A stretch of 64,000 nt of DNA, from positions 4,662 through 68,661 of the forward strand of contig LCMS01000001.1 of NCBI GenBank assembly GCA_001002765.1, written 5' to 3'. Of the stretch, positions 2,816-32,682 are shown one piece after another. Position numbers and translations under genes: made by a program. Within the stretch, counting starts at the first letter, position 1. Every line of letters starts with the position of its first letter. This DNA comes from Candidatus Uhrbacteria bacterium GW2011_GWE2_46_68 (GTDB lineage: Bacteria; Patescibacteriota; Patescibacteriia; UBA9934; GWF2-40-263). The notes under the pieces were generated by a model. That model was not told the origin of the DNA, made no database searches, and saw nothing but the letters and a program-made list of their open reading frames with translations.

Positions 2816-4615
2816 TTAAGGGTTAAAGACGGTTGTTATTTTCCCTTGCATCATAACATCGCGCAAAGGTTCGGACGAGAGATCGGCCAGTTCTTCAAAG
2901 ATTTTCGCCGCCTCTTGATCACTCACGGGCGTAGGTTGTTTTTCGATAATGCGATAGGGGAGAATCCATAAGGAAAGATTATTTTTTTCTCGCAATACAC
3001 CCACGGCATACCCTTTGTCCGTCTCAGGCATGGGTTGATCAAAAATGAAATTGCCCATGGAATAAAATACAGGAACGTCATCAATCATCTCGGCTCCTTG
3101 GGTGACGTGTGGATGTCCACCCACAATAAGATCAGCCCCTGCCTCCACCATCAGTGATGCCAAGTATTGCTGACTTGTATCCGGCACGCGCGCATATTCG
3201 GTTCCCCAATGCGGATAGGCAATGACAAAAAGATTTTCCGCAGATGCCTCCTCGATTTGTGCAACCAAGGTTTTCCAACTGCTTTGGAATTGATTGAATC
3301 CCACAAAAGAAACGCTCGTATTTCCCACTTCCATATCAAGACGAGGCGCCGCATCGTTATAAGTGCCAAACCATTTGATCCCAAGACTTGTAAGGGTTTC
3401 CTGCGTGGAAGTCGTGGCCTCTTTCCCATAATCATCCGTGTGATTATTGGCAAGGCTCACAACATCAACATAGAGTGACAAAACTTCATCCGCCTCGATC
3501 GGGAACACAAAAGGGTAGGGGGCCTCATGCGCATTTTTACGTTCCCAATCTCCTACGGTTCCCTCATGATTGCCGATAACCGTGTGAGTACCCGATAAAA
3601 ATCGTTCCATGTTTTGCCAAGGATAATCATAGCCATGCTCTTCCATTTCGGTTCGCACACTGCGGTCAAGCATGATGTCGCCGATCATGGTGAGGCTCAT
3701 AAACGTACCGTTTTCCGGAGGGCCACTTGTGAAGTAGCCCAAGATATGGCTGGTATTATCTTCAGGATCATTTGTGGCTCCCATCAAAATAGAACTGCCG
3801 CGATAGAGCGGATGCCACACTTGCGAGCCGTGTTCCTTGTTAAACGCAAACAAAATACGCAGGAGCGCATTGGAATCGGTTTCGAGTTCGCATCCGCGAC
3901 AATCACCATGAGCAAGGGCGGTCAAAGTGACCTCGTCATGAAAGGCCGCGATGTACTCGGGAAGATAGTGGGACATGTCGGCGCTGCCTATCAACAAGGC
4001 ATTAGGAAGAGTTTGAGCAATGGTTGTGCCCAAGATCGTCGCTTGCTCAAGAGTGAGATTGTCATGGACAATAATGGGGACAAGTTTGGCGTTTGGAAAA
4101 GATTTTTTGATAAACGGGGTGAGGGCGGCAATGCCGTGTTCCTTTGCAAAAGCTTCTTCCTCTTGTGCAAGCTCGGTATTTTTTGACAACAGTTCAACTA
4201 CAGCTCCCTCATCTGTTTCCAAAATGCCATAAGGTGTTTGCCAATTTCCTAAAGAGATTTGAGCAAAAGATCGTCCAACCGAAAAATGATTGGGGCTTAT
4301 TAGGACGATGGTGTGCACATCTTCATTACCGATGGTATAAAAAGTTTCGGCGATTTTGTGAGCTACAAGGAGATGATGGGCTGCAAGCGCGCTTTGGACA
4401 GCATTTTTCTCCTCATGCCATTTCGCTTGCGCATAGGCGGACTCATAAAAGTTTTGATCTTGCAGGCCGGAGGAATAAAGAGGGGAATCGTCTTCATGTA
4501 TTAAAGAGGGGAGGAAAACATATTGAGATCCCAAAAAAATTCCCAAACAAAAAAGACCTGTGAAAAGACAGATCCAAACCATCCAAGAAAAAGAAGAGTG
4601 GGGGAGAAGGGTCAT
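2816..4615 (-). CDS. fusion protein with an N-terminal TM, a MEMO1-like domain and a CapA-family metallophosphatase domain
   Basis: The N-terminal half has MEMO-like motifs (LISPNHF, SADMSHY). The C-terminal half has CapA/PGA_cap motifs (LTMIGDIMLDRSV, ANNHTDDYG, YPHWGTEY, GGHPHVTQG, MGNFIFDQ). Confidence 0.55.
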   Translation of the reverse strand: MTLLPHSSFSWMVWICLFTGLFCLGIFLGSQYVFLPSLIHEDDSPLYSSGLQDQNFYESAYAQAKWHEEKNAVQSALAAHHLLVAHKIAETFYTIGNEDVHTIVLISPNHFSVGRSFAQISLGNWQTPYGILETDEGAVVELLSKNTELAQEEEAFAKEHGIAALTPFIKKSFPNAKLVPIIVHDNLTLEQATILGTTIAQTLPNALLIGSADMSHYLPEYIAAFHDEVTLTALAHGDCRGCELETDSNALLRILFAFNKEHGSQVWHPLYRGSSILMGATNDPEDNTSHILGYFTSGPPENGTFMSLTMIGDIMLDRSVRTEMEEHGYDYPWQNMERFLSGTHTVIGNHEGTVGDWERKNAHEAPYPFVFPIEADEVLSLYVDVVSLANNHTDDYGKEATTSTQETLTSLGIKWFGTYNDAAPRLDMEVGNTSVSFVGFNQFQSSWKTLVAQIEEASAENLFVIAYPHWGTEYARVPDTSQQYLASLMVEAGADLIVGGHPHVTQGAEMIDDVPVFYSMGNFIFDQPMPETDKGYAVGVLREKNNLSLWILPYRIIEKQPTPVSDQEAAKIFEELADLSSEPLRDVMMQGKITTVFNP

Positions 4616-4916
4616 AATGATTTTATCATACGGGTTTTTGGGGTGTTCGTCATTTCTTGTTTATCTTTTATAATGTGATGACTCTAGGGGAAGGTTTGAA
4701 ATGACGGGAGAAGAAAAGATGATAAATCACTCAAAAAACCCCAATAAAAACGCAAAAAGATGGGGTTTTTTCTTGACACATACGTTATTTTATGATACGT
4801 TGGCGCGTTCTAAAAAGTGCGTTTTTCAAAAGGAACGTCGTGCAATCAAGCGGTTTGATAGGCGTATAACATCTCCTCCTTGTTATACGTTCTGTCGAAC
4901 CACTTGAGTGCATGGC

Positions 4917-4961
4917 TAGAACGTAGGATTTGATTTATTGATCAAATCTTTCGTTCTAGTC
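4917..4961. repeat. imperfect inverted repeat (ctagaacgtaggatttgat / atcaaatctttcgttctag) upstream of the first high-GC island gene
   Basis: Seen directly; it contains the TCCTACGTT motif that recurs at 6509 and 9877. Confidence 0.5.
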
Positions 4962-5074
4962 AAAGGCACAGCTCCTTACAAGGAAGACTAACCCAAAACT
5001 AGAAGTTCGAAGCTCGACAACACCCCCACTACGGCGGAGAACCCGCCGTTTCCACTCGAAACAGGAGCCACACC

Positions 5075-6493
5075 ATGCGTACCTTCGTCACTCTCTTCGG
5101 TCTTTTCTTCGTTTTCGCCACCCCGGCCTTCGCGGCCGACTACTACCTCGACAATGACGGCGACGGCTACGGACAGACCACGGTCAAGCAGGCAAGCACC
5201 GCGACCGCGGCCCCCACGGGCTACGCGGCCGACAGTGGTGACTGCAATGACACCGACGCCGCGATCAACCCGGATGCCATCGAAGGGTGGGGTCAGGCCG
5301 GCGACAAGATCGACCAGGACTGCGACGGTTCCGACCGCCCCCTGCCCACGATCCCGGCCGATGCGGGGAGGAAGTTCAAGAAGAACTACCCCACGATGAA
5401 TGCCCTCGTCCTCGCGCGTACCTACGGGTACTGCGGGGTGACCGCGGGCTGCGTGATCAACAACACCGATGGCAAGTTCGAGGTCACCACGGCCGGCCAG
5501 GCCTTGTGTGACATGACCGTGTCGCGCGGATATTGGAAGCTCTGGGACGAAAACCAGTGCGCCCAGACCGCGGGCCTGATGTCCTCCCGTGGTGGTGGTC
5601 TCGGCAAGAGCACCGTCGAGAAGATGATCGCCGATGGGAACGCGCCCCTGGCGGCCCGCATCGATGAGGTCGCCCAGGCCTCCTACGACTTCGATATGCG
5701 GCTCGACGAGAGGATCGAAGTCCTGAACATCGCGGTCCTGACGGACAACAGGCGGCTCGATGACCTCGAGGAAGCGGCCGAGTTGTTCGACACCCGGCTC
5801 GATGACCTCGAGGAAGCGGACGTGACCCTGACTCGTGATATCAACGAGGTGTTCGATTCCCAGGTCGCCCTCGTTGGTGGCAGGAAGTCCGATGGCTCGG
5901 TCGTTCCGCCCGAAAAGTCCCGTATGAGTGTGGTGGAGGCAGGGGTCATGGACCTTTCTGACAACGGCATCATGGTGCTCGGTAGCTTTGGCGGAAACGT
6001 CGGCTACCAGCGGCCCTATGCCGTGCAGGAAGGCGGACGCTATGTCCGTGATGCGATGTTCGGTTCGGTCGGCGTCGGGGGTTTCCTTGGCGGCCGGTTC
6101 GGCCAGTTCCAGATGGGCGCTTCCGGCCTCGGAACCCGTACCTGGGATCCGAGCTATGGCAACAGCTTCACCCTCGGCCTCGAGGGCACCTACTTCCCCG
6201 GTGACATGGGCTTCGGCCTGTTCCTGGGTGGCGGGTCCCACGAGTCCGGAGGCAAGCCTCCGGTCGAGTCGACCGTGATCGGCCGCTACGGATTGGTCGG
6301 TTTGCAGGGCGTGTGGAACGCCCCGATCAACGGATACGGTATGTTCCAGATCGTCCCCCGCCTCTCGGCTGGCATCGAGGTCTTCGGGACCAAGGCCAGC
6401 GACGGTGAGAACGTGATCGTCGATGCCCAGCCCGGCGCCCTGCTGATGTTCTCCCTCGAGCTCCGCGCTGGCGCGGGACCCAAGGGCATCTAG
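5075..6493 (+). CDS. secreted protein with one MopE-type Cys/Asp motif, a coiled-coil middle and a Gly-rich C-terminal domain
   Basis: Signal peptide ending AFA|AD. Motifs DNDGDGYG and DCNDTDAAINP...DQDCDG. Heptad-like RLDDLEEA repeats. High-GC codon usage. Confidence 0.6.
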   Translation: MRTFVTLFGLFFVFATPAFAADYYLDNDGDGYGQTTVKQASTATAAPTGYAADSGDCNDTDAAINPDAIEGWGQAGDKIDQDCDGSDRPLPTIPADAGRKFKKNYPTMNALVLARTYGYCGVTAGCVINNTDGKFEVTTAGQALCDMTVSRGYWKLWDENQCAQTAGLMSSRGGGLGKSTVEKMIADGNAPLAARIDEVAQASYDFDMRLDERIEVLNIAVLTDNRRLDDLEEAAELFDTRLDDLEEADVTLTRDINEVFDSQVALVGGRKSDGSVVPPEKSRMSVVEAGVMDLSDNGIMVLGSFGGNVGYQRPYAVQEGGRYVRDAMFGSVGVGGFLGGRFGQFQMGASGLGTRTWDPSYGNSFTLGLEGTYFPGDMGFGLFLGGGSHESGGKPPVESTVIGRYGLVGLQGVWNAPINGYGMFQIVPRLSAGIEVFGTKASDGENVIVDAQPGALLMFSLELRAGAGPKGI

Positions 6494-6748
6494 ATAGATA
6501 GAGTCTTCCTACGTTACGAGGGCGAGTGGTTCAATCCCATCTCGCCCGTCTTGCAAAGGTGTTGAGCATTGCCTCGACAACTTTGCGAAGATTCGTTCAT
6601 TTACATTGGATTAAAAGAGAACCGGGGATGTGAGAGAAAAAGAATGAGAAATTTTTTTCCTTCACACCCCTGGTTTTACTAGGGATTTCGAAAGACCAAC
6701 CCAGTACGGGCGAGGTTTCCTCGCCCAACTTCAACAAGGAGTTCCACC

Positions 6749-7399
6749 ATGCGTTCTCTTCTTCTCTCCCTTCTTTCCCTCTCCGTCGCCTGCGGTCCGG
6801 CCTGGTATCAGGGTCCTGCTCTGGAAGACACCTGTGAGGAGGCCGACACGGATACCGATTCCGACAGCGACAGCGACACAGACTCGGACACCGACTCCGA
6901 CACCGACTCCGACACCGACGTGGTCGTCGAGACCGACCCGTGCGAGGGGAAGGATCTCTGCATCGACTTCGAGACCCCCGGTGGTGTCGAGGTTGAGAAC
7001 GTGTACTTCCATGCCCACGTGATCGACGATGATGACGACTTCGATGCCATGGTGGCCGGCACGGTCAACTGGCCGGACTGGACCATCAACCTGACCTTCG
7101 ATGACATCGAGGAAGCCAGCGTCGGCCTGGACACGGGCTACATCGCGGCGGTGCGGTACAACGTGTCGTTCTGCGACGGTCACGAGGATGGCGACGACGG
7201 TGATGCGGACCACTGCACGTGGCTCGCGTACGGTCGTACCAGCTCCGAGGCCTACCTCACGGCCGACACCGAGGTCTGGTATTGGGGAGAGGACTACGAT
7301 CCCGAGACCATGACCTGGTGCTACGACACCGAAGGTGACACCGACTCCAACGACGACGAGTGTGGAACCTCGGTCGTCGCTGGTCCCAGCGTCGACTGA
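6749..7399 (+). CDS. acidic lipoprotein with a (DT/DS)n repeat
   Basis: Lipobox LSVAC|G followed by DTDTDSDSDSDTDSDTDSDTDSDTD; start context ccATGCGT. Confidence 0.6.
   Translation: MRSLLLSLLSLSVACGPAWYQGPALEDTCEEADTDTDSDSDSDTDSDTDSDTDSDTDVVVETDPCEGKDLCIDFETPGGVEVENVYFHAHVIDDDDDFDAMVAGTVNWPDWTINLTFDDIEEASVGLDTGYIAAVRYNVSFCDGHEDGDDGDADHCTWLAYGRTSSEAYLTADTEVWYWGEDYDPETMTWCYDTEGDTDSNDDECGTSVVAGPSVD
6845..6919 (+). repeat. in-frame hexanucleotide repeat (GAC-WSC) of about 12.5 units inside the CDS
   Basis: gacacggataccgattccgacagcgacagc...gacaccgac read directly. Confidence 0.8.
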
Positions 7400-7416
7400 T
7401 CCACACGTTTTGCTAC

Positions 7417-7455
7417 GGCCCCCGTTGAGCTTTGCTCCGGGGGCTTTTCTGTTTC
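7417..7455 (+). terminator. Rho-independent terminator
   Basis: ggcccccg ... cgggggc stem followed by ttttctgtttc. Confidence 0.55.
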
Positions 7456-7537
7456 TTTAATCAAAAAATAGAACATAAACAAATCCCTCCGAAGTCCACG
7501 CCGATGGCGGGGAAGAAGGGGGGGATTCTGTTTCAAA

Positions 7538-7590
7538 AGGGGCGAACGGCCGTTTTGTACGGTAGGGGCGAACGGCCGTTCGCCCCTACC
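7538..7590. repeat. GC-rich perfect palindrome ggtaggggcgaacggccgttcgcccctacc with an adjacent half-copy
   Basis: The 30-nt self-complementary sequence was read directly; it belongs to a family of six copies. Confidence 0.9.
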
Positions 7591-7616
7591 TTAGCCAAAA
7601 AGCGACCGTGATGGCC

Positions 7617-7645
7617 TTGACAAAATGACGTTTTTTTGTTATAGT
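7617..7645 (+). promoter_or_regulatory. near-consensus sigma70 promoter TTGACA-N17-TATAGT
   Basis: ttgaca at 7617-7622, a 17-nt spacer, then tatagt at 7640-7645. Confidence 0.6.
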
Positions 7646-7651
7646 AGGACG

Positions 7652-7809
7652 TTCAGAATTTGGCAAAAGTACACGGATTTGCGCCATGTTTACAAGGATA
7701 ATGCTTGCGAAGACCTGTTACGAAGCGGGTTTAGCCGGCAACACACGAGGGTGAGAGTAGGGAATCCAAAGGGATTTCCATATCCACACCCTCAAACGGG
7801 TGTTTTTTC
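7652..7809 (+). ncRNA. candidate structured RNA (sRNA or riboswitch-like leader) ending in an intrinsic terminator
   Basis: About 160 nt between the consensus promoter and the terminator acaccc-tcaaac-gggtgt-TTTTTT. An alternative helix gagggtg (7747-7753) with caccctc (7787-7793) overlaps the terminator 5' arm. No ORF is present. Confidence 0.4.
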
Positions 7810-7810
7810 A

Positions 7811-7862
7811 TAATTTCCAATCCCTTCATTCATTAGAAATTGGAAATTAGTAATTGGAAATT
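7811..7862. repeat. AT-rich palindromic repeat (aatttccaat ... attagaaattggaaattagtaattggaaattt), copy R5
   Basis: Near-identical to 32637-32682 and the inverse of 31933-31975 and 32566-32610. Confidence 0.8.
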
Positions 7863-8048
7863 TACCCACCTCCTTGTCCCCATAGTGCAACTCCGTGACT
7901 TGAGGAAGTTCTTTCCAATAGAACGGAGAAACAGCAAAAAGATCAGTCAACCATACGGGCAAGGTTCTATCCCTGCCCACCCACACCAAACCCGCACGCT
8001 TGCGTGCGTCACGCTTCGCGTTCCAACTACCCCAAGGAGAAAAACACC

Positions 8049-9857
8049 ATGCGTTCCCTTCTTCTCGCTACTCTCATCTTCACCTCGGGCTGCAACCCAG
8101 CTTTCATCTTCGACGGCACCTCCACTGACACCGGCAGCGTCATCGACGACGACACTGGCATCCAGATCGAGGACACCGACATCGAAGATGGCTTCGAGCA
8201 GGGCCCCCAGATCGATCCCGACGACCTCGACAACCTCTTCGACGAGGACGAGACCGACGCGGACGAGGACGGCAGCCCGGCTTCCGAGGACTGCGACGAT
8301 CACGACGACGATGTGTACCCTGGTGCCACCGAGAAGTGCGACGGCGATGACAATGACTGCAACGGCGAAGTGGACGAGGGCTGCTCCGACAGCTCCTACA
8401 CCTACTACCGCGACAGCGACAGCGACGGGTACGGCGACAGCGCCGTGACCACGACCGTCACCACGGCCACGGCCCCCACGGGCTACGTCGCAAACGATGA
8501 CGACTGCGATGACATGAGCGCAGCCGTGAGCCCCGCCGACGCCGAGATCTGCAACAGCATCGATGACGACTGTGATGGCAGCGTGGACGAGGGCGTCACC
8601 ACCACCTTCTACGCCGACACCGATACCGACACCTATGGCAACGTGGCCTCCACCAAGGCCGCGTGCAGCCAGCCCACGGGCTACGTCGCAAACGATGATG
8701 ACTGCAACGACAGCACCTCCTCGGCCCACCCGGGCGCGACTGAGAGCTGCAATGACAGCATCGACAACGACTGCGATGGCGATACCAACGAGGGCTGCAC
8801 CGGCAGTGCCTCGGACAACGATGGCGACGGCTACACCGAGGACGGCGGCGACTGCGATGACACCGACAACAGCGTCCACCCGGGCGCCACCGAGACCTGC
8901 GACAGCGAGGACGACGACTGCGACGGCATCGTGGATGAGAGCGTGACCGTGACCTACTACCGCGACAGCGACAGCGACGGCTACGGCGTGGCGACCACCA
9001 CGATCGCGGCCTGCTCCGCACCGAGCGGGTACGTCACCAACTCGACCGACTGCAATGATGTGAGCGGAAGCGTCCACCCGGGCGCGACCGAGACCTGCAA
9101 CTACACGGATGACGATTGCGACGGATCCACGGACGAGGGCGTGATCAACACGTACTACCGCGACAGCGACAGCGACGGCTATGGCGTGAGCACCACGACC
9201 ACGGCCGCCTGTTCCGCTCCCACGGGCTACGTCACGAACTCGACTGACTGCAACGACACCAGTGCGGCCGTGAGCCCCGCCGATGTCGAGATCGACAATG
9301 ACATCGATGATGACTGCGACGGTACGATCGACGAGGGCTTCACCAGCACCTCGGATCCCTGCAGCGGGCAGCTCGCCTGCTTCGTGAACGATGACAGCGA
9401 CAGCTACAACGATGTCCTCTACGTCCATATGTCCCTCTTCACCCAGGGCTCGACCTACCAGACCCACGACGCGGTCGTGGTCGGGATCGGCGGCTCCTGG
9501 GACCTGAATGACGACAACGTGGCCGTGATCGAAGATGGTTCGTGGTTCGTGATCGACCCCAGCACCTGGTCGTGCGGAGTCGAACAAGATGTCACCCTCG
9601 TGTCCTCCCTGGACAACGACGGCGTCGATCTGTTCGATGAGTACGACTGCGATACGGATGAAGAGCTCGAGACGTCCGCCTGCGACGGAGTAGTTTCCTA
9701 CGCCACCTGGTCTTCCGAGGCCATCTGGCTCCAGAATTACGCCTTCTGCACGGGCGGATCGACGATCGCCGGCCAGATCTGTGAAAGCCAGGGCACCACG
9801 TCGTACCTCTTCTCCCTGGAGGTCGACTGCAGCACCCGCGAGTTCCGGGCGGATTAG
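8049..9857 (+). CDS. lipoprotein with about 7 MopE-type Cys/Asp-rich repeats and a distinct C-terminal domain
   Basis: Start chosen at MRSLLLATLIFTSGC|N (lipobox) with aaggag 10 nt upstream. Repeats read DCDD.DDDV.PGA.E.C.G.DNDC.G.VDEG, alternating with YYRDSDSDGYG. Confidence 0.7.
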   Translation: MRSLLLATLIFTSGCNPAFIFDGTSTDTGSVIDDDTGIQIEDTDIEDGFEQGPQIDPDDLDNLFDEDETDADEDGSPASEDCDDHDDDVYPGATEKCDGDDNDCNGEVDEGCSDSSYTYYRDSDSDGYGDSAVTTTVTTATAPTGYVANDDDCDDMSAAVSPADAEICNSIDDDCDGSVDEGVTTTFYADTDTDTYGNVASTKAACSQPTGYVANDDDCNDSTSSAHPGATESCNDSIDNDCDGDTNEGCTGSASDNDGDGYTEDGGDCDDTDNSVHPGATETCDSEDDDCDGIVDESVTVTYYRDSDSDGYGVATTTIAACSAPSGYVTNSTDCNDVSGSVHPGATETCNYTDDDCDGSTDEGVINTYYRDSDSDGYGVSTTTTAACSAPTGYVTNSTDCNDTSAAVSPADVEIDNDIDDDCDGTIDEGFTSTSDPCSGQLACFVNDDSDSYNDVLYVHMSLFTQGSTYQTHDAVVVGIGGSWDLNDDNVAVIEDGSWFVIDPSTWSCGVEQDVTLVSSLDNDGVDLFDEYDCDTDEELETSACDGVVSYATWSSEAIWLQNYAFCTGGSTIAGQICESQGTTSYLFSLEVDCSTREFRAD

Positions 9858-9966
9858 CCGTTCCGTTCGTCTCCGTTCCTACGTTATACGCGAGCCCCTT
9901 GTCTTTGTTCACACTTCGGTGTGTTCATTGACCAGGGGCTCTTGTTGTTTTCAAGGTTGATGATCC

Positions 9967-10018
9967 GGTAGGGGCGAACGGCCGTTCGCCCCTACCGTAC
10001 CGGCCGTTCGCCCCTACG
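9967..10018. repeat. GC-rich palindrome copy P2 plus a half-copy
   Basis: ggtaggggcgaacggccgttcgcccctacc followed by gtaccggccgttcgcccctacg. Confidence 0.9.
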
Positions 10019-10219
10019 ATTCATTGACATTTTTGCCAAAATATGGTAAAAACTTAGGCCAATTTTGGCTGAAAATATCGCTGATTTGACATAAAAACCT
10101 CTGGTTTAGGGATTTTTATGTCAGGTCAGTTCAGAGGTTCCTTCCACCATCGTGCGTTACGACCTGGCGCGCGATATTTCCAACAATGACCCGACCCCCA
10201 ACCCTCAAGGGAGGTTTCC

Positions 10220-12955
10220 ATGCGTCTTTTTCTGTGTGGTCTCTTTCTCATCTCCGGCTGCGAGTTTTTCGGCCCGGCCAGCGTTTTCGACGACACCAAG
10301 CCCGATGATTCGGGCACTATCGACACCGGTGCCCCCTGCGAAGAGCAGGCCTGGTACCGCGACAGCGACGGCGATGGGTACGGCATCTCGGTTTCCGAAA
10401 CCTGGGCCTGTGAGGCCCCCGAAGGCTTCGTGGCCAACGGCAAGGACTGCGATGACGACGACCCTGCGGTCAACCCCGGAGCGGTCGAAGTCTGCAACGG
10501 GATCGATGACAACTGCGACGGTGAGATCGACAACGATCCCGACGGCGACGACATCTGGTACATCGACGCGGACAGCGATGGCTACGGCAACCCGGACATG
10601 GCCCAGGACTGCGATGGCTATGACTGGTTCGTGAGCCAGGCGGGCGACTGCAACGATCTCGACCCCGCGGTCAACCCCGCGGCCACCGAGCTGTGCGACG
10701 AAGTCGACAACGACTGCGACGACACGATCGACGAGGATGATGCGGCCGATGCCACGCCCTGGTACGAGGACTTCGATGGCGATCTCTACGGCAACCTTGC
10801 CGTGGTGCGTGACGCCTGTGCGGAGCCCGAGGGCTACGTGGCCGACGCAACCGACTGCGATGACACGGACGCGGGTGTGAACCCCGACGCCAGCGAGTTC
10901 TGCGACGAGAAGGACAACAACTGCAACAGCGAAGTGGACGAGGGTGTGACCCTCACCTTCTACGCCGATGCTGATGCCGATCTCTACGGCGACGTGGGCA
11001 ACACCACGGAGGCCTGCCTCCTGACCGACGGCTACACCGAGGACGCAACCGACTGCGATGACGATGATCCCGCGGTCAACCCCGGCGCGGTCGAAGACTG
11101 CAATGGCATGGATGACGACTGCAACGGCGAAGTGGACGAGGGCGTGACCCTCACCTTCTACGTCGATGTCGACGCCGATCTCTATGGCGACGCGATGGTC
11201 TACGTCGAGTCCTGCGAAGCCCCCACGGGCTATGTCGCGGACGCGACCGACTGCAACGATGCCACGGCAAGCGCCTACCCGGGCGCTGACGAGTACTGCG
11301 ACACCCTCGACAACGACTGCGACAGCGTGGTCGACGAGAGCGACGCGATCGATGCCGGCGACTGGTTCGCGGATGCGGATGGCGACCTCTACGGTGATGT
11401 GACCATGGCCTTGCGCGCCTGCATGGCGCCCATGGGCTATGTCGCGGACGCGACCGACTGCAACGATGACACTGCGAGCGCCTACCCCGGCGCCAGTGAG
11501 TACTGCGACACCCTCGACAACGACTGCGACAGCGTGGTCGACGAGAGCGACGCGATCGATGCCCCGACCTGGTACACCGATCTGGACACGGACGGCTACG
11601 GCGACGCGATCACGGCCACCTTCTCTTGCACCGCCCCTGCGGGCATGATCGAGGACGGCACGGACTGCGATGACCTGGACCGTTCGGTTCATCCCAATGC
11701 CACCGAATTCTGTGATGAGATGGACAATGACTGCGATGGCCTGGTCGACGAAGAGCGGGGCAACCTGTTTTTCGCCGATGCGGATGGCGACGGTTTCGGT
11801 GACCCCTCGGTCTCTTCGGAGGCCTGTGCGGCTCCCTTGACCTATGTCGCTGACGACACGGACTGCGATGACACCGACGCGGGTGTGAATCCCGGCGCCG
11901 ACGAGCTCTGCAACGGGCTCGATGACGACTGCGATGGCACGCTGGACGAGGATGCCACGGAAATGAGCGCCTGGTACCTGGACTACGACAACGATTCCTT
12001 TGGGAATTGGATGGCGCAGACCTGGTCGTGTGATCAGCCCGCAGGCTATGTGGCTGACGCCACGGACTGCAATGATCTTCTCTCCTCGGTTTTCCCAAGC
12101 GCCTCCGAGACCTGCAACGGGCTCGATGACGACTGCGACGGCACCACCGATGAGGGGGTGAAGACCACTTTCTACGCGGATGCGGACGCGGACGGCTACG
12201 GCAACGTGGCTGTGACCGAGGAAGCTTGCGATCCCTCCGAAGGGTTCGTCTATGATTCCACGGACTGCGACGATGCCGATGTGGATGTGAACCCCGGCGC
12301 CGACGAGTTCTGCAACAGCCTCGATGACAACTGTGATGGCACGGTGGACGAGGATGATGCGGTCGACGCCCCGACCTGGTACGCGGACAGTGATCTCGAC
12401 CTCTACGGTGATGAGAACAACACCCTGGAGGTGTGCACCGCTCCCGCGGGCTACATCGCCGACGCGACCGACTGCGATGACACCGATGATCTCGTGAACC
12501 CCGAGGGGATCGAGATCTGCGATGACACGATCGACAACGACTGCGACGGGGACACCGACCTTTCCGACGAGTGCCTCTATGAAGGAACCTACACGGGAAC
12601 CTTCGAGGCCGATGTTACCTTGACCGCCTTCGGGATCACGGACACCTGTGAGGGTGCTGTGGAGCTCGATGTTGCGATCGACGGGGAGCCCATGATCTTC
12701 GGTGAGGCGTCATGTGCCTTCTCGGGATTGTTCGCCACCTATTACGCTGACGACATCATCGGCGCGATCGAGGGAGACATCTTCTCGGACATGGATGCCG
12801 AGGGCGATCTCTACGATGACGACGAGATCTTCTCGTCCATCTGGACCGGGATTTTCGACACCGATGAGCTCGACGCCACGTTTGTGGGTGAGGGTACCCT
12901 CCTTGGGTACGCCTACACCTATGACGGGACGTTCGAGACGATTTACACGCCCTAG
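10220..12955 (+). CDS. large lipoprotein (911 aa) with at least 12 MopE-type Cys/Asp-rich repeats
   Basis: Lipobox LISGC|E and RBS gggagg. Repeating DCDD.D..VNPGA.E.CNG.DDDCDG..DE ... WY.D.DGDLYGD units. Confidence 0.7.
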   Translation: MRLFLCGLFLISGCEFFGPASVFDDTKPDDSGTIDTGAPCEEQAWYRDSDGDGYGISVSETWACEAPEGFVANGKDCDDDDPAVNPGAVEVCNGIDDNCDGEIDNDPDGDDIWYIDADSDGYGNPDMAQDCDGYDWFVSQAGDCNDLDPAVNPAATELCDEVDNDCDDTIDEDDAADATPWYEDFDGDLYGNLAVVRDACAEPEGYVADATDCDDTDAGVNPDASEFCDEKDNNCNSEVDEGVTLTFYADADADLYGDVGNTTEACLLTDGYTEDATDCDDDDPAVNPGAVEDCNGMDDDCNGEVDEGVTLTFYVDVDADLYGDAMVYVESCEAPTGYVADATDCNDATASAYPGADEYCDTLDNDCDSVVDESDAIDAGDWFADADGDLYGDVTMALRACMAPMGYVADATDCNDDTASAYPGASEYCDTLDNDCDSVVDESDAIDAPTWYTDLDTDGYGDAITATFSCTAPAGMIEDGTDCDDLDRSVHPNATEFCDEMDNDCDGLVDEERGNLFFADADGDGFGDPSVSSEACAAPLTYVADDTDCDDTDAGVNPGADELCNGLDDDCDGTLDEDATEMSAWYLDYDNDSFGNWMAQTWSCDQPAGYVADATDCNDLLSSVFPSASETCNGLDDDCDGTTDEGVKTTFYADADADGYGNVAVTEEACDPSEGFVYDSTDCDDADVDVNPGADEFCNSLDDNCDGTVDEDDAVDAPTWYADSDLDLYGDENNTLEVCTAPAGYIADATDCDDTDDLVNPEGIEICDDTIDNDCDGDTDLSDECLYEGTYTGTFEADVTLTAFGITDTCEGAVELDVAIDGEPMIFGEASCAFSGLFATYYADDIIGAIEGDIFSDMDAEGDLYDDDEIFSSIWTGIFDTDELDATFVGEGTLLGYAYTYDGTFETIYTP

Positions 12956-17326: not shown

Positions 17327-17376
17327 GGTAGGGGCGAACGGCCGTCTGTAGGGGCGAACGGCCGTTCGCCCCTACG
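17327..17376. repeat. GC-rich palindrome copy P3 (a half-copy plus a full copy) in a divergent promoter region
   Basis: ggtaggggcgaacggccgtc followed by tgtaggggcgaacggccgttcgcccctacg. Confidence 0.9.
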
Positions 17377-30854: not shown

Positions 30855-30884
30855 GGTAGGGGCGAAGGGCCCTTCGCCCCTACC
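30855..30884. repeat. GC palindrome variant P4 (ggtaggggcgaagggcccttcgcccctacc)
   Basis: A perfect palindrome whose centre differs from the other copies by compensatory substitutions. Confidence 0.9.
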
Positions 30885-31932: not shown

Positions 31933-31975
31933 AGATTCAAGAATTTCCAATTTCTAATATCTAATTTCCAATGAA
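31933..31975. repeat. AT-rich repeat R1 (agaatttccaatttctaatatctaatttccaatg) immediately upstream of the lexA start
   Basis: Family member; the inverse orientation of R4 and R5. Confidence 0.75.
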
Positions 31976-32364: not shown

Positions 32365-32418
32365 AGATTTCCTTCATTATCCGACGGAGCCAGATCCGGC
32401 TTTGCCGGAGAAATTAGG

Positions 32419-32447
32419 AATTGGAAATTAGAAATTTTTGTTTTGTG
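32419..32447. repeat. AT-rich repeat R2 (agaaattaggaattggaaattagaaattt)
   Basis: Family member with a ccggctttgccgg hairpin just upstream. Confidence 0.7.
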
Positions 32448-32565: not shown

Positions 32566-32610
32566 TAAGAGAATTTCCAATTTCTAATGTCTAATTTCTA
32601 ATGTAGGCGC
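32566..32610. repeat. AT-rich repeat R3 (gagaatttccaatttctaatgtctaatttctaatg)
   Basis: About 90% identical to R1. Confidence 0.75.
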
Positions 32611-32636
32611 CTATCGGCGATATTTGAAATAAATAT

Positions 32637-32682
32637 CCCCATTCATTAGAAATTAGTAATTGGTAATTGGAAATTTTTATCT
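32637..32682. repeat. AT-rich repeat R4 (ccccattcattagaaattagtaattggtaattggaaattt)
   Basis: About 85% identical to R5 at 7811-7862. Confidence 0.8.

What the first reader, a model, noticed from the sequence alone, without database searches (positions are those of the whole stretch)
7617..7809. Consensus promoter, ~160-nt structured RNA and intrinsic terminator: candidate sRNA or riboswitch-like leader
A TTGACA-N17-TATAGT promoter is followed by an ORF-free ~160-nt segment. The segment ends in a hairpin (acaccc/gggtgt) plus T6. A mutually exclusive helix, gagggtg (7747-7753) with caccctc (7787-7793), sequesters the terminator 5' arm. That is the antiterminator/terminator architecture of riboswitches and attenuators. 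The next gene, a MopE-type lipoprotein at 8049, starts about 240 nt downstream. The first ~40 nt (aggacgttcagaatttggcaaaagtacacggatttg) resemble the region upstream of the paralogous gene at 10220 (aggccaattttggctgaaaatatcgctgatttg). This suggests a conserved leader class for this gene family. I could not match it to a known riboswitch (cobalamin, SAM, c-di-GMP) or to SRP RNA.
Basis: seen in the sequence. Interest (0 to 1): 0.65.

Follow-up and report, generated by a model that had tools for sequence, protein, structure and literature searches.

The report
Structured leader RNA before lipoprotein gene
The promoter, folded RNA and terminator are real and conserved in a few related uncultured Uhrbacteria, but they are the front half of a roughly 280-base, tightly folded leader of the neighbouring surface-lipoprotein gene, belonging to no known RNA family and with an unknown trigger.

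Summary
TTGACA-N17-TATAGT lies at 7617-7645. A structured plus-strand RNA follows (z -4.1). The ACACCC/GGGTGT hairpin plus T6 lies at 7786-7808 and competes with the GAGGGTG/CACCCTC helix.

Promoter, RNA and terminator are conserved in three other metagenomic lineages of Candidatus Uhrbacteria, always between the same two lipoprotein genes. The flanking intergenic DNA is not conserved. No Rfam family matches and no ORF is conserved.

The first ~50 nt of the transcript are complementary (38 bp, two compensatory changes) to an invariant block at 7870-7926, downstream of the terminator. Folding 7649-7930 gives the same four-way junction in three lineages (z -6.4 to -8.6).

In two lineages the block directly follows the terminator. 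No other sigma-70-type promoter was found before the start codon at 8049, and the paralogous promoter at 10024 drives the next MopE gene.

My best reading is a ~400-nt 5' leader of the MopE-type lipoprotein gene with an internal terminator/antiterminator module, that is an attenuator with an unknown signal. A trans-acting sRNA, or a constitutive leader for mRNA stability or processing, remain possible.

This is a new, narrowly distributed RNA family of a known regulatory kind. Covariation rests on only four sequences.

The parts
7417..7459 (+). Intrinsic terminator of the upstream 216-aa lipoprotein gene (GGCCCCCG...CGGGGGC followed by a T-rich run). It shows that the RNA downstream is a separate transcription unit.
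   Evidence: Sequence. It is conserved in L084, L085, L087 and L089, with compensatory changes in L085.
7538..7590 (.). REP-like palindromic repeat (GGTAGGGGCGAACGGCCGTTCGCCCCTACC plus a half copy) just upstream of the promoter.
   Evidence: There are four copies in the window, against 0 expected. A copy sits at the same position upstream of the paralogous promoter at 10024.
7617..7645 (+). Sigma-70-type promoter, TTGACA-N17(TG)-TATAGT. The predicted transcription start is about 7649-7652.
   Evidence: The -35, the spacer length, the TG and the -10 are invariant in four lineages, while the DNA upstream is 42-45% identical in L085 and L089.
7649..7698 (+). 5' arm, the first ~50 nt of the transcript. 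It can fold on itself (P1, or P0 plus P1b). In the read-through transcript it pairs with the block at 7870-7926.
   Evidence: It is the most conserved part of the RNA. Duplex energy is -43.3 kcal/mol, z -5.1. There are 38 pairs, 96.8% of cells are paired and two changes are compensatory.
7702..7740 (+). P2 hairpin, with an invariant tip CCUGUU-ACGA-AGCGGG and an interrupted basal stem.
   Evidence: 91% of cells are paired, and the basal stem varies.
7747..7793 (+). P3 hairpin. Its base GAGGGUG/CACCCUC is invariant and acts as the 'antiterminator'. Its tip is variable and is replaced by a REP-like hairpin in L089.
   Evidence: One change in the tip is compensatory. P3 alone folds at -23.9 kcal/mol.
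7786..7808 (+). Terminator-like hairpin ACACCC/GGGUGU (-8.6 kcal/mol) plus U6. Its 5' arm overlaps the 3' strand of P3.
   Evidence: The hairpin and a U-rich tract are kept in all five lineages, including the deletion remnant L084.
7812..7862 (.). AT-rich inverted repeat (AATTTCCAAT...ATTGGAAATT). It is a copy of a dispersed repeat and forms hairpin P4 in the read-through leader.
   Evidence: Other copies lie at 31940-31975, 32405-32436 and 32570-32680. The copy in L085 is longer, and L089 and L084 have none.
7870..7926 (+). Conserved block, the 3' arm. It is complementary to nt 2-50 of the transcript and closes the ~280-nt domain.
   Evidence: It is 88-91% identical and nearly invariant in all lineages that reach it. 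The long-range helix is predicted independently in the window, L097/L087 and L085.
7927..8048 (+). Remainder of the leader. It is poorly conserved, contains small hairpins, and ends in the Shine-Dalgarno AAGGAG at 8034-8039.
   Evidence: Identity to L085 is 56%. L097 carries an insertion of about 180 nt here. No promoter-like site was found.
8049..9857 (+). MopE-repeat lipoprotein gene (602 aa), the presumed regulated gene.
   Evidence: Pfam PF11617, E 3.7e-50, six repeats. Orthologues are 90%, 75% and 71% identical.
10024..10219 (+). Paralogous promoter (TTGACA-N17, TGgTAAAAA) and ~165-nt leader of the next MopE gene. It has a conserved long local hairpin at 10081-10129 and no terminator.
   Evidence: The profile of this region matches 7405-7647 at E 9e-7.

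Best explanation
The flagged segment is the promoter-proximal part of a long (~400 nt), highly structured 5' leader of the MopE-type lipoprotein gene at 8049, in a Candidatus Uhrbacteria (CPR/Patescibacteria) genome.

Proposed sequence of events:
1. Transcription starts about 7650 from the consensus promoter.
2. The nascent RNA forms a 5' hairpin, then P2, then P3.
3. The 3' strand of P3 (CACCCUC) overlaps the 5' arm of an intrinsic-terminator hairpin (ACACCC/GGGUGU plus a U-tract), so each transcript either stops near 7809 or reads through.
4. A stopped transcript gives a ~158-nt RNA.
5. In a read-through transcript the block at 7870-7926 anneals to the first ~50 nt (38 bp). This closes a ~280-nt four-way junction (P2, P3, P4) and buries the 5' end.
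6. The gene is then translated from its own Shine-Dalgarno sequence.

I take the P3/terminator competition to be a conditional attenuator set by an unidentified factor, which could be a ligand, a protein or kinetics.

Shown here: the promoter, the helices, their conservation, the complementarity, and the lack of coding potential or of any known family.

Inferred: the transcription start, actual termination and read-through, that the switch is regulated, and any effect on the gene.
For: - Conservation islands. The promoter is 84-88% identical, the RNA 76-89% and the block 88-91%. The flanking intergenic DNA is 42-56% identical (84% in the closest lineage, L087) and the neighbouring coding sequence 58-79% (alignments).
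- Structure. The 160-nt piece gives z -4.1, -4.0 and -3.8 in three lineages. The whole domain gives z -7.4, -8.6 and -6.4 with the same architecture. The minus strand is 16 kcal/mol weaker.
- Long-range helix. 96.8% of cells are paired, against 35-47% in slid registers. There are two compensatory A-U to G-C changes and four compatible one-sided changes. The duplex z is -3.7 to -5.1.
- Same transcription unit. In L089 and L084 the block follows the terminator within about 15 nt, which leaves no room for a separate promoter. No sigma-70-like site lies between 7809 and 8049. The stretch from the block to the start codon is not conserved.
- Paralogy. The homologous promoter at 10024 directly drives the next MopE gene.
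- Poised switch. The terminator and P3 conformers differ by 0.6-5.1 kcal/mol in all four lineages. The hairpin and U-tract are kept in all five lineages.
- Not coding, and no Rfam match.
Against: - There are no expression data. The transcription start, termination and read-through are all predicted.
- Only four distinct sequences exist. Covariation does not exceed the shuffle controls (93/500; 240/500), and most helix positions are invariant and so uninformative.
- Several alternative pairings of the 5' 50 nt fit the sequences equally well: P1 local, P0 plus P1b, and the long-range helix.
- At equilibrium the terminator is formed in only 0.07-6% of molecules. It may hardly terminate, which would make the leader constitutive.
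- L084 has lost the promoter and 5' two-thirds of the RNA but keeps an intact gene and block. The leader is therefore dispensable, or that gene is expressed by other means.
- The 5' arm's duplex energy with the block (-43.3) is only modestly better than with the best unrelated tile of the window (-40.8).
- CPR promoters that differ from the sigma-70 consensus would have been missed.
Confidence: 0.45

Rival explanations
1. An independent trans-acting small RNA. Transcription ends efficiently at about 7809, giving a ~158-nt sRNA. Its conserved 5' 50 nt base-pair in trans with the block in the 5' UTR of the adjacent MopE mRNA, which is made from its own promoter, and modulate its stability or translation.
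For: It has its own consensus promoter and a canonical-looking hairpin plus U6, both conserved. The 5' region is the most conserved part, as sRNA seed regions usually are. Its complementarity to the block is extensive and conserved. L084 keeps the gene without the RNA.
Against: No promoter-like site lies between the terminator and the block or the start codon. In L089 and L084 the block abuts the terminator. The terminator is thermodynamically disfavoured against P3. The paralogous promoter at 10024 is a gene promoter. 38 bp of pairing that begins at nucleotide 2 of the transcript is more typical of an intramolecular helix than of an sRNA seed.
Confidence: 0.2
2. A constitutive structural leader. 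The hairpin plus U run is not a working terminator. The ~280-nt domain simply protects the 5' end, or provides a double-stranded processing site (for example for RNase III) that sets mRNA half-life. There is no conditional switch.
For: The antiterminated fold dominates at equilibrium, at 94-99.9%. In the full-length fold GGGUG is used in helix P4. The long helix starts at the very 5' end. The paralogous leader has a ~22-bp local hairpin at the equivalent place and no terminator.
Against: ACACCC, GGGUGU and a following U-rich tract are invariant in all five lineages. That includes lineages without the AT-rich repeat, and the remnant L084 where P3 is gone. The exact overlap with P3 is conserved, and the conformers are nearly isoenergetic in the window.
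Confidence: 0.25
3. A non-functional or mobile-element remnant. On this view 7649-7926 is a MITE-like insertion with ~50-nt imperfect terminal inverted repeats, and the RNA-like features are incidental.
For: An imperfect inverted repeat flanks a ~170-nt core. The region is littered with REP-like palindromes and a dispersed AT-rich repeat. A REP-like hairpin sits in the P3 tip of L089, and a REP-associated deletion is seen in L084.
Against: The element is single-copy. Neither the sequence profile nor the covariance model finds another copy in the window or in 1.32 Mb of other loci. The repeat starts at the predicted transcription start. G-U pairs make the plus strand 16 kcal/mol more stable than the minus strand. 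Changes in the arms are compensatory. It is far better conserved than the surrounding intergenic DNA in L085 and L089. I saw no target-site duplication by eye.
Confidence: 0.06
4. A small protein-coding gene: the 62-aa plus-strand ORF at 7625-7813, or the 64/65-aa minus-strand ORF at 7792-7989 that the GenBank record of the same contig annotates.
For: Both ORFs exist mechanically. The minus-strand frame stays open across the block in three lineages.
Against: The plus-strand ORF starts inside the promoter and is frame-shifted by indels in the relatives. The minus-strand ORF has no conserved start, stop or length. It runs through a dispersed repeat, and six of eight substitutions in the block are non-synonymous (codon comparison by eye). 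A database search with these peptides found only the same loci.
Confidence: 0.03

Closest known systems
Transcriptional 'ON' riboswitches and attenuators with a terminator/antiterminator expression platform (for example the pbuE adenine riboswitch; from general knowledge)
   Same: It lies in a 5' leader behind a strong promoter. It has a multi-helix junction, including a possible three-way junction of P1b, P2 and P3. One helix strand overlaps a terminator arm. The alternative folds are nearly isoenergetic. A gene follows on the same strand.
   Different: There is no sequence or structure match to any Rfam riboswitch and no ligand can be inferred. About 240 nt separate the terminator from the start codon. 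A 38-bp clamp between the 5' end and a block downstream of the terminator is not a usual riboswitch feature. The element is known from only four lineages.
5'-UTR-derived small RNAs made by premature termination that also act in trans (for example Listeria SreA/SreB, Sinorhizobium rnTrpL; from general knowledge)
   Same: A terminated leader fragment of ~160 nt with a conserved, potentially accessible 5' region and extensive complementarity to an mRNA leader.
   Different: Here the only detected target is the transcript's own downstream leader. Trans action is not needed to explain the data and was not tested.
5'-terminal stabilising stem-loops and long double-stranded RNase III sites in bacterial leaders (for example the ompA 5' stem-loop and the pnp and rnc leaders; from general knowledge)
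   Same: A long helix begins at nucleotide 2 of the transcript. The paralogous leader has a ~22-bp hairpin at the equivalent place.
   Different: The two arms are ~170-230 nt apart and enclose a terminator-like module. No cleavage or stability data exist.
Correia/REP/MITE-type repeat elements co-transcribed into mRNAs (from general knowledge)
   Same: Imperfect inverted repeats would form long hairpins in RNA. REP-like and AT-rich dispersed repeats are embedded in or next to the element.
   Different: The 5'-arm/block pair and the P2-P3 core are single-copy. They are strand-asymmetric and anchored to a conserved promoter.

Membership tests
Any Rfam 15 family (riboswitches, 6S, SRP, tmRNA, RNase P, known sRNAs) | A covariance-model score at or above the family's gathering threshold | tested here: not met
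   There were 0 matches at gathering score in the whole window. No plus-strand match overlapped 7649-7809 even at E<=10 in the window. The same held in L087, L089, L102 and L085. The only matches were generic hairpin hits on the repeats.
Sigma-70-type promoter | -35 and -10 hexamers with a 16-18 nt spacer, conserved in relatives | tested here: met
   The match is 11/12 with an extended TG. The hexamers, the spacer length and the TG are invariant in four lineages. The match alone is not rare by chance. Promoter activity was not tested.
Intrinsic (Rho-independent) terminator | A G+C-rich hairpin immediately followed by a U-tract | tested here: met
   The stem has 6 bp (4 G-C), the loop 6 nt, followed by U6, at -8.6 kcal/mol. 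It is conserved in five lineages.
Intrinsic (Rho-independent) terminator | The hairpin actually forms and stops transcription | not testable with these tools
   Equilibrium occupancy is only 0.07-6% because P3 competes. An in vitro transcription assay or Term-seq is needed.
Riboswitch / transcription attenuator (as a kind) | Mutually exclusive terminator and antiterminator helices in the 5' leader of the regulated gene | tested here: met
   GAGGGUG/CACCCUC and ACACCC/GGGUGU share five bases. Both are invariant in four lineages, and the conformers lie within 0.6-5.1 kcal/mol. That the segment is a leader is inferred.
Riboswitch / transcription attenuator (as a kind) | A conserved sensor domain supported by covariation | tested here: inconclusive
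   95-97% of cells are paired, against 30-53% in slid registers, but there are only 1-2 compensatory pairs per model and no excess over shuffles. Four sequences are too few.
Riboswitch / transcription attenuator (as a kind) | Binding of a specific ligand or factor that shifts the fold | not testable with these tools
   No ligand can be inferred. The gene's function (MopE-repeat lipoprotein) gives no clear metabolite lead.
Trans-acting base-pairing sRNA | Own promoter and terminator giving a discrete transcript | tested here: inconclusive
   The sequence signals are present and conserved. The terminator is predicted to be mostly masked. There are no transcript data.
Trans-acting base-pairing sRNA | A target mRNA transcribed independently of the sRNA | tested here: not met
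   No promoter-like site lies between 7809 and 8049. The block abuts the terminator in L089 and L084. Non-consensus promoters cannot be excluded.
MITE / dispersed repeat element | Multiple copies in the genome | tested here: not met
   The profile and the covariance model find only the orthologous copy in the window and in each related contig. Only 64 kb of the genome was available.
Small protein-coding gene | An ORF with conserved frame, start and stop in relatives | tested here: not met
   Indels break the frame of the plus-strand ORF. The minus-strand ORF varies from 65 to 114 aa, with unrelated N- and C-termini.

The most novel reading that the evidence does not exclude
This is a previously undescribed class of ligand- or factor-sensing attenuator in CPR/Patescibacteria that controls a surface MopE-repeat lipoprotein. 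A three-way junction (P1b-P2-P3) would sequester both arms of the terminator when 'on'. Read-through would be locked in by a 38-bp clamp between the transcript's 5' end and a downstream block. The prematurely terminated ~158-nt product, which carries the same 5' arm, could compete in trans for that block, giving a built-in feedback.
Probability: 0.2. Interest if true: 0.7.

Novelty: new variant of a known kind. Interest (0 to 1): 0.5.

Why it matters
Regulatory RNAs of the Candidate Phyla Radiation are almost uncharted. These organisms have tiny genomes and few recognisable regulators, and they depend on cell-surface proteins to attach to hosts.

A strongly structured, conserved leader with a built-in terminator decision in front of a fast-evolving surface lipoprotein would be a concrete, testable example of RNA-based gene control in this group. 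Its design is also unusual: the 5' end is clamped to a block beyond the terminator.

The practical lesson is for gene callers. The annotated 64-aa 'hypothetical protein' on the opposite strand is probably an artefact of this RNA element.

The limits are real. The family is known from four close lineages, no signal is known, and there are no expression data.

Tried and rejected
- Rfam at gathering score on the whole window, and at E<=10 on the region and on three homologues. Nothing relevant.
- A genome-contig scan anchored on the Memo/PGA_cap fusion protein (2816-4615). The nearest relative is only 43% identical (Ca. Uhrbacteria RIFOXYB12). The source genome itself is not in that collection, and none of the 80 loci has the RNA. 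The scan was effectively wasted.
- A metagenome scan with GGCAAAAGNNCACGGATTTGCG. It returned two true homologues that were already known, plus eight chance hits in coding regions.
- Baiting with the spurious antisense ORFs. This returned only the same organism (L101, 100% identical) and the L087 lineage (L102).
- A covariance model and nhmmer profiles. No paralogue was found in the window or anywhere else.
- Complementarity of the P3 5' strand to the signal-peptide codons at 8065-8081 (16 of 17 pairs). Rejected as compositional, purine-rich against pyrimidine-rich. The register and energy are not conserved: offsets are +15, +6 and +27, and energies -27, -17.5 and -22.8 kcal/mol.
- A leader peptide. 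The 22-codon ORF from 7686 has no Shine-Dalgarno sequence and is not conserved in frame (read from the sequence).
- Housekeeping RNA (6S, SRP, RNase P, tmRNA). Rejected on three grounds: no Rfam match, a narrow distribution, and deletion in L084.
- An automatic alignment of leader 1 against leader 2 was mis-registered and uninformative.
- Two literature searches found nothing on CPR leaders or on MopE regulation.

Full report
**1. What is in the sequence**

- The promoter is TTGACA at 7617-7622, a 17-nt spacer ending in TGT, and TATAGT at 7640-7645 (11 of 12 matches).
- The hairpin is ACACCC (7786-7791) / GGGTGT (7798-7803), followed by T6.
- GAGGGTG (7747-7753) is complementary to CACCCTC (7787-7793), which overlaps the terminator's 5' arm.

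The plus strand 7652-7809 folds at -52 kcal/mol, z -4.1. The minus strand gives z -1.4.

An 11/12 promoter match by itself is not remarkable. 65% of local-composition shuffles of the window contain one.

A mechanical 62-aa ORF (7625-7813) exists. It begins inside the promoter spacer.

**2. Organism and neighbourhood**

The same DNA is in MAG GCA_003519005.1. One of its proteins is named by NCBI as Candidatus Uhrbacteria bacterium. A JGI contig is 100% identical over 701 nt.

The region holds four tandem genes for Asp-rich lipoproteins with MopE repeats, at 5075, 6749, 8049 and 10220. The upstream gene (6749-7399) has its own good terminator at 7417-7459.

**3. Relatives**

No Rfam family matches, either at gathering score over the window or at E<=10 locally.

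Orthologues of the flanking proteins led to syntenic contigs.
- Three further lineages carry the element at the same position: L087/L097/L102, L085/L095 and L089.
- A fifth lineage, L084, has lost the promoter and the 5' two-thirds of the RNA. It keeps the terminator hairpin, the downstream block and an intact gene.
- L089 has a REP-like hairpin in the tip of P3, and L084 breaks exactly there. A repeat-mediated deletion is therefore likely (inference).
- A more distant contig, L090, has neither the RNA nor the MopE gene after the orthologous upstream gene.

Every further search returned only these lineages:
- the metagenome pattern scan;
- the search baited with spurious ORFs;
- the sequence profiles;
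- the covariance model run over 1.32 Mb.

**4. Conservation**

| Segment | Identity to the window |
|---|---|
| Promoter | 84-88% |
| RNA | 76-89% |
| Block at 7866-7930 | 88-91% |
| Intergenic DNA upstream of the promoter | 42-45% in L085 and L089, 84% in the close L087 |
| Block to start codon | 56% |
| Adjacent coding sequence | 58-79% |

Indels of 1, 1 and 2 nt break every ORF. This is therefore a selected, non-coding element.

**5. Structure of the 160-nt part**

All four sequences fold into a 5' domain, P2 (7702-7740) and P3 (7747-7793).
- The base of P3 and the tip of P2 are invariant.
- The tip of P3 varies in length and sequence but stays a hairpin, with one compensatory pair.

The terminator hairpin never appears in the minimum-energy folds. 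Forcing it costs 0.6-5.1 kcal/mol relative to keeping P3. Its equilibrium occupancy when GGGUGU has just emerged is 0.07-6%.

GGGUGU can also pair with GCGCC at 7681-7685 (helix P1b). That gives a P1b-P2-P3 three-way junction in which both terminator arms are sequestered, and all of its pairs hold in all four sequences.

**6.

Nucleotides 2-50 of the predicted transcript are complementary to the conserved block at 7870-7926. The 38 bp are:
- CGUUC/GAACG
- AGAAUUU/AAGUUCU
- AAGU/ACUU
- CACGGA/UCCGUG
- UUGCGC/GUGCAA
- AUG/CAU
- ACAAGGA/UCCUUGU

Evidence for this helix:
- Folding the whole leader predicts it independently in the window, L097 and L085.
- Duplex energies are -42 to -45 kcal/mol, z -3.7 to -5.1.
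- 96.8% of cells are paired, against 35-47% in slid registers.
- Two A-U to G-C double changes and four compatible single changes occur. The sub-helix 7-13/109-115 (alignment columns) is weaker.
- The 282-nt domain 7649-7930 folds at -105.3 kcal/mol, z -7.4, with the centroid almost identical to the minimum-energy fold. L085 gives z -8.6 and L087 z -6.4 with the same four-way junction.
- The minus strand is 16 kcal/mol weaker, z -3.95. This fits G-U pairs and an RNA read from the plus strand.

**7. Cis or trans**

Four observations place the block in the same transcript.
- In L089 and L084 the block follows the terminator's U-tract within about 15 nt.
- No promoter-like site lies between 7809 and 8049.
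- The stretch between the block and the start codon is unconserved and tolerates a ~180-nt insertion in L097.
- The region from the upstream terminator through the palindromic repeat to the promoter is paralogous to the one at 9860-10053 (E 9e-7). That promoter directly drives the next MopE gene through a ~165-nt leader, which carries a conserved long local hairpin and no terminator.

The AT-rich inverted repeat at 7812-7862 is a copy of a dispersed repeat. It is dispensable, being absent in L089 and L084.

**8. Interpretation**

The best-supported reading is a ~400-nt structured leader of the MopE lipoprotein gene with an internal terminator/antiterminator module.

I commit to a conditional attenuator with an unknown signal (confidence 0.45). 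The reasons are that the overlap, the hairpin and the U-tract are invariant in every lineage, and that the two folds are nearly isoenergetic.

The rivals are:
- a constitutive leader for stability or processing (0.25);
- a trans-acting sRNA that targets the neighbouring leader (0.2);
- a repeat-element remnant (0.06);
- a small ORF (0.03).

**9. Limits**

There are only four distinct sequences from one narrow clade. Covariation does not beat the shuffle controls, and several alternative pairings of the 5' arm fit equally well. There are no expression data, and non-consensus promoters cannot be excluded.

**10. Novelty**

The element belongs to no known RNA family. The regulatory kind (leader, attenuator) is known. 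The clamp between the 5' end and a block beyond the terminator is an unusual variant.

Noticed in passing
window 7561-7590, 9967-9996, 17347-17376, 30855-30884 (half copies at 7538-7554 and 10001-10017): A 30-nt perfect palindrome, GGTAGGGGCGAACGGCCGTTCGCCCCTACC, recurs in intergenic regions (4 copies, 0 expected by chance). Variant versions occur in the related contigs L084, L087 and L089. One sits inside the P3 tip of L089, at the breakpoint of the L084 deletion.
   Followed up: partly
window 7812-7862, 31940-31975, 32405-32436, 32570-32680; L085 3727-3835: A dispersed AT-rich inverted-repeat element (AGAATTTCCAATTTCTAATG ... CATTAGAAATTGGAAATT). Two copies end 10-11 nt upstream of ATG start codons that lack an obvious Shine-Dalgarno sequence (about 31931 on the minus strand and 32688 on the plus strand). 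The element might carry promoter or translation signals.
   Followed up: partly
window 10024-10219: A second conserved promoter (TTGACA-N17 with TGgTAAAAA) and a ~165-nt structured leader of the 911-aa MopE gene (z -4.5). It contains a ~22-bp hairpin at 10081-10129, conserved with compensatory changes in L084 and L085.
   Followed up: partly
window 7792-7989, minus strand: The GenBank record of the same contig annotates a 64-aa hypothetical protein here. It lies antisense to the conserved block and the AT-rich repeat. Its start, stop and length are not conserved in relatives, so it is probably a miscalled gene.
   Followed up: yes
L097 (reverse complement) about 3540-3790; L083 63-250: In the L087/L097 lineage a ~180-nt insertion that forms a very long hairpin sits between the conserved block and the MopE ribosome-binding site. 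This shows that this part of the leader tolerates large insertions.
   Followed up: no
window 6625-6675: Upstream of the 6749 lipoprotein gene there is a hairpin, GGGGAUGUGAGAG...CCUUCACACCCC followed by UGGUUUU. It resembles P3 (GAGGGUGAGAG...CACACCCUC) and may be a diverged paralogue of the P3/terminator module.
   Followed up: no
window 4647-5074: A promoter-like site (TCGTCA-N16-TATAAT at 4647) would give the 5075 MopE-family gene a ~390-nt leader as well. Long leaders may be a general trait of this gene cluster.
   Followed up: no
window 2816-4615, minus strand: A 599-aa fusion of a Memo-like (AmmeMemoRadiSam system protein B) domain and a PGA_cap/metallophosphatase domain. The nearest genome-collection relative is only 43% identical (Ca. 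Uhrbacteria RIFOXYB12_FULL_58_10). The source genome itself was not found in the GTDB-representative collection.
   Followed up: no
window 7638-7666, minus strand: A 10/12 promoter-like site (TTGCCA-N17-TATAAC) lies on the opposite strand and overlaps the plus-strand -10 and the transcription start. It is probably a by-product of the AT-rich promoter sequence.
   Followed up: no
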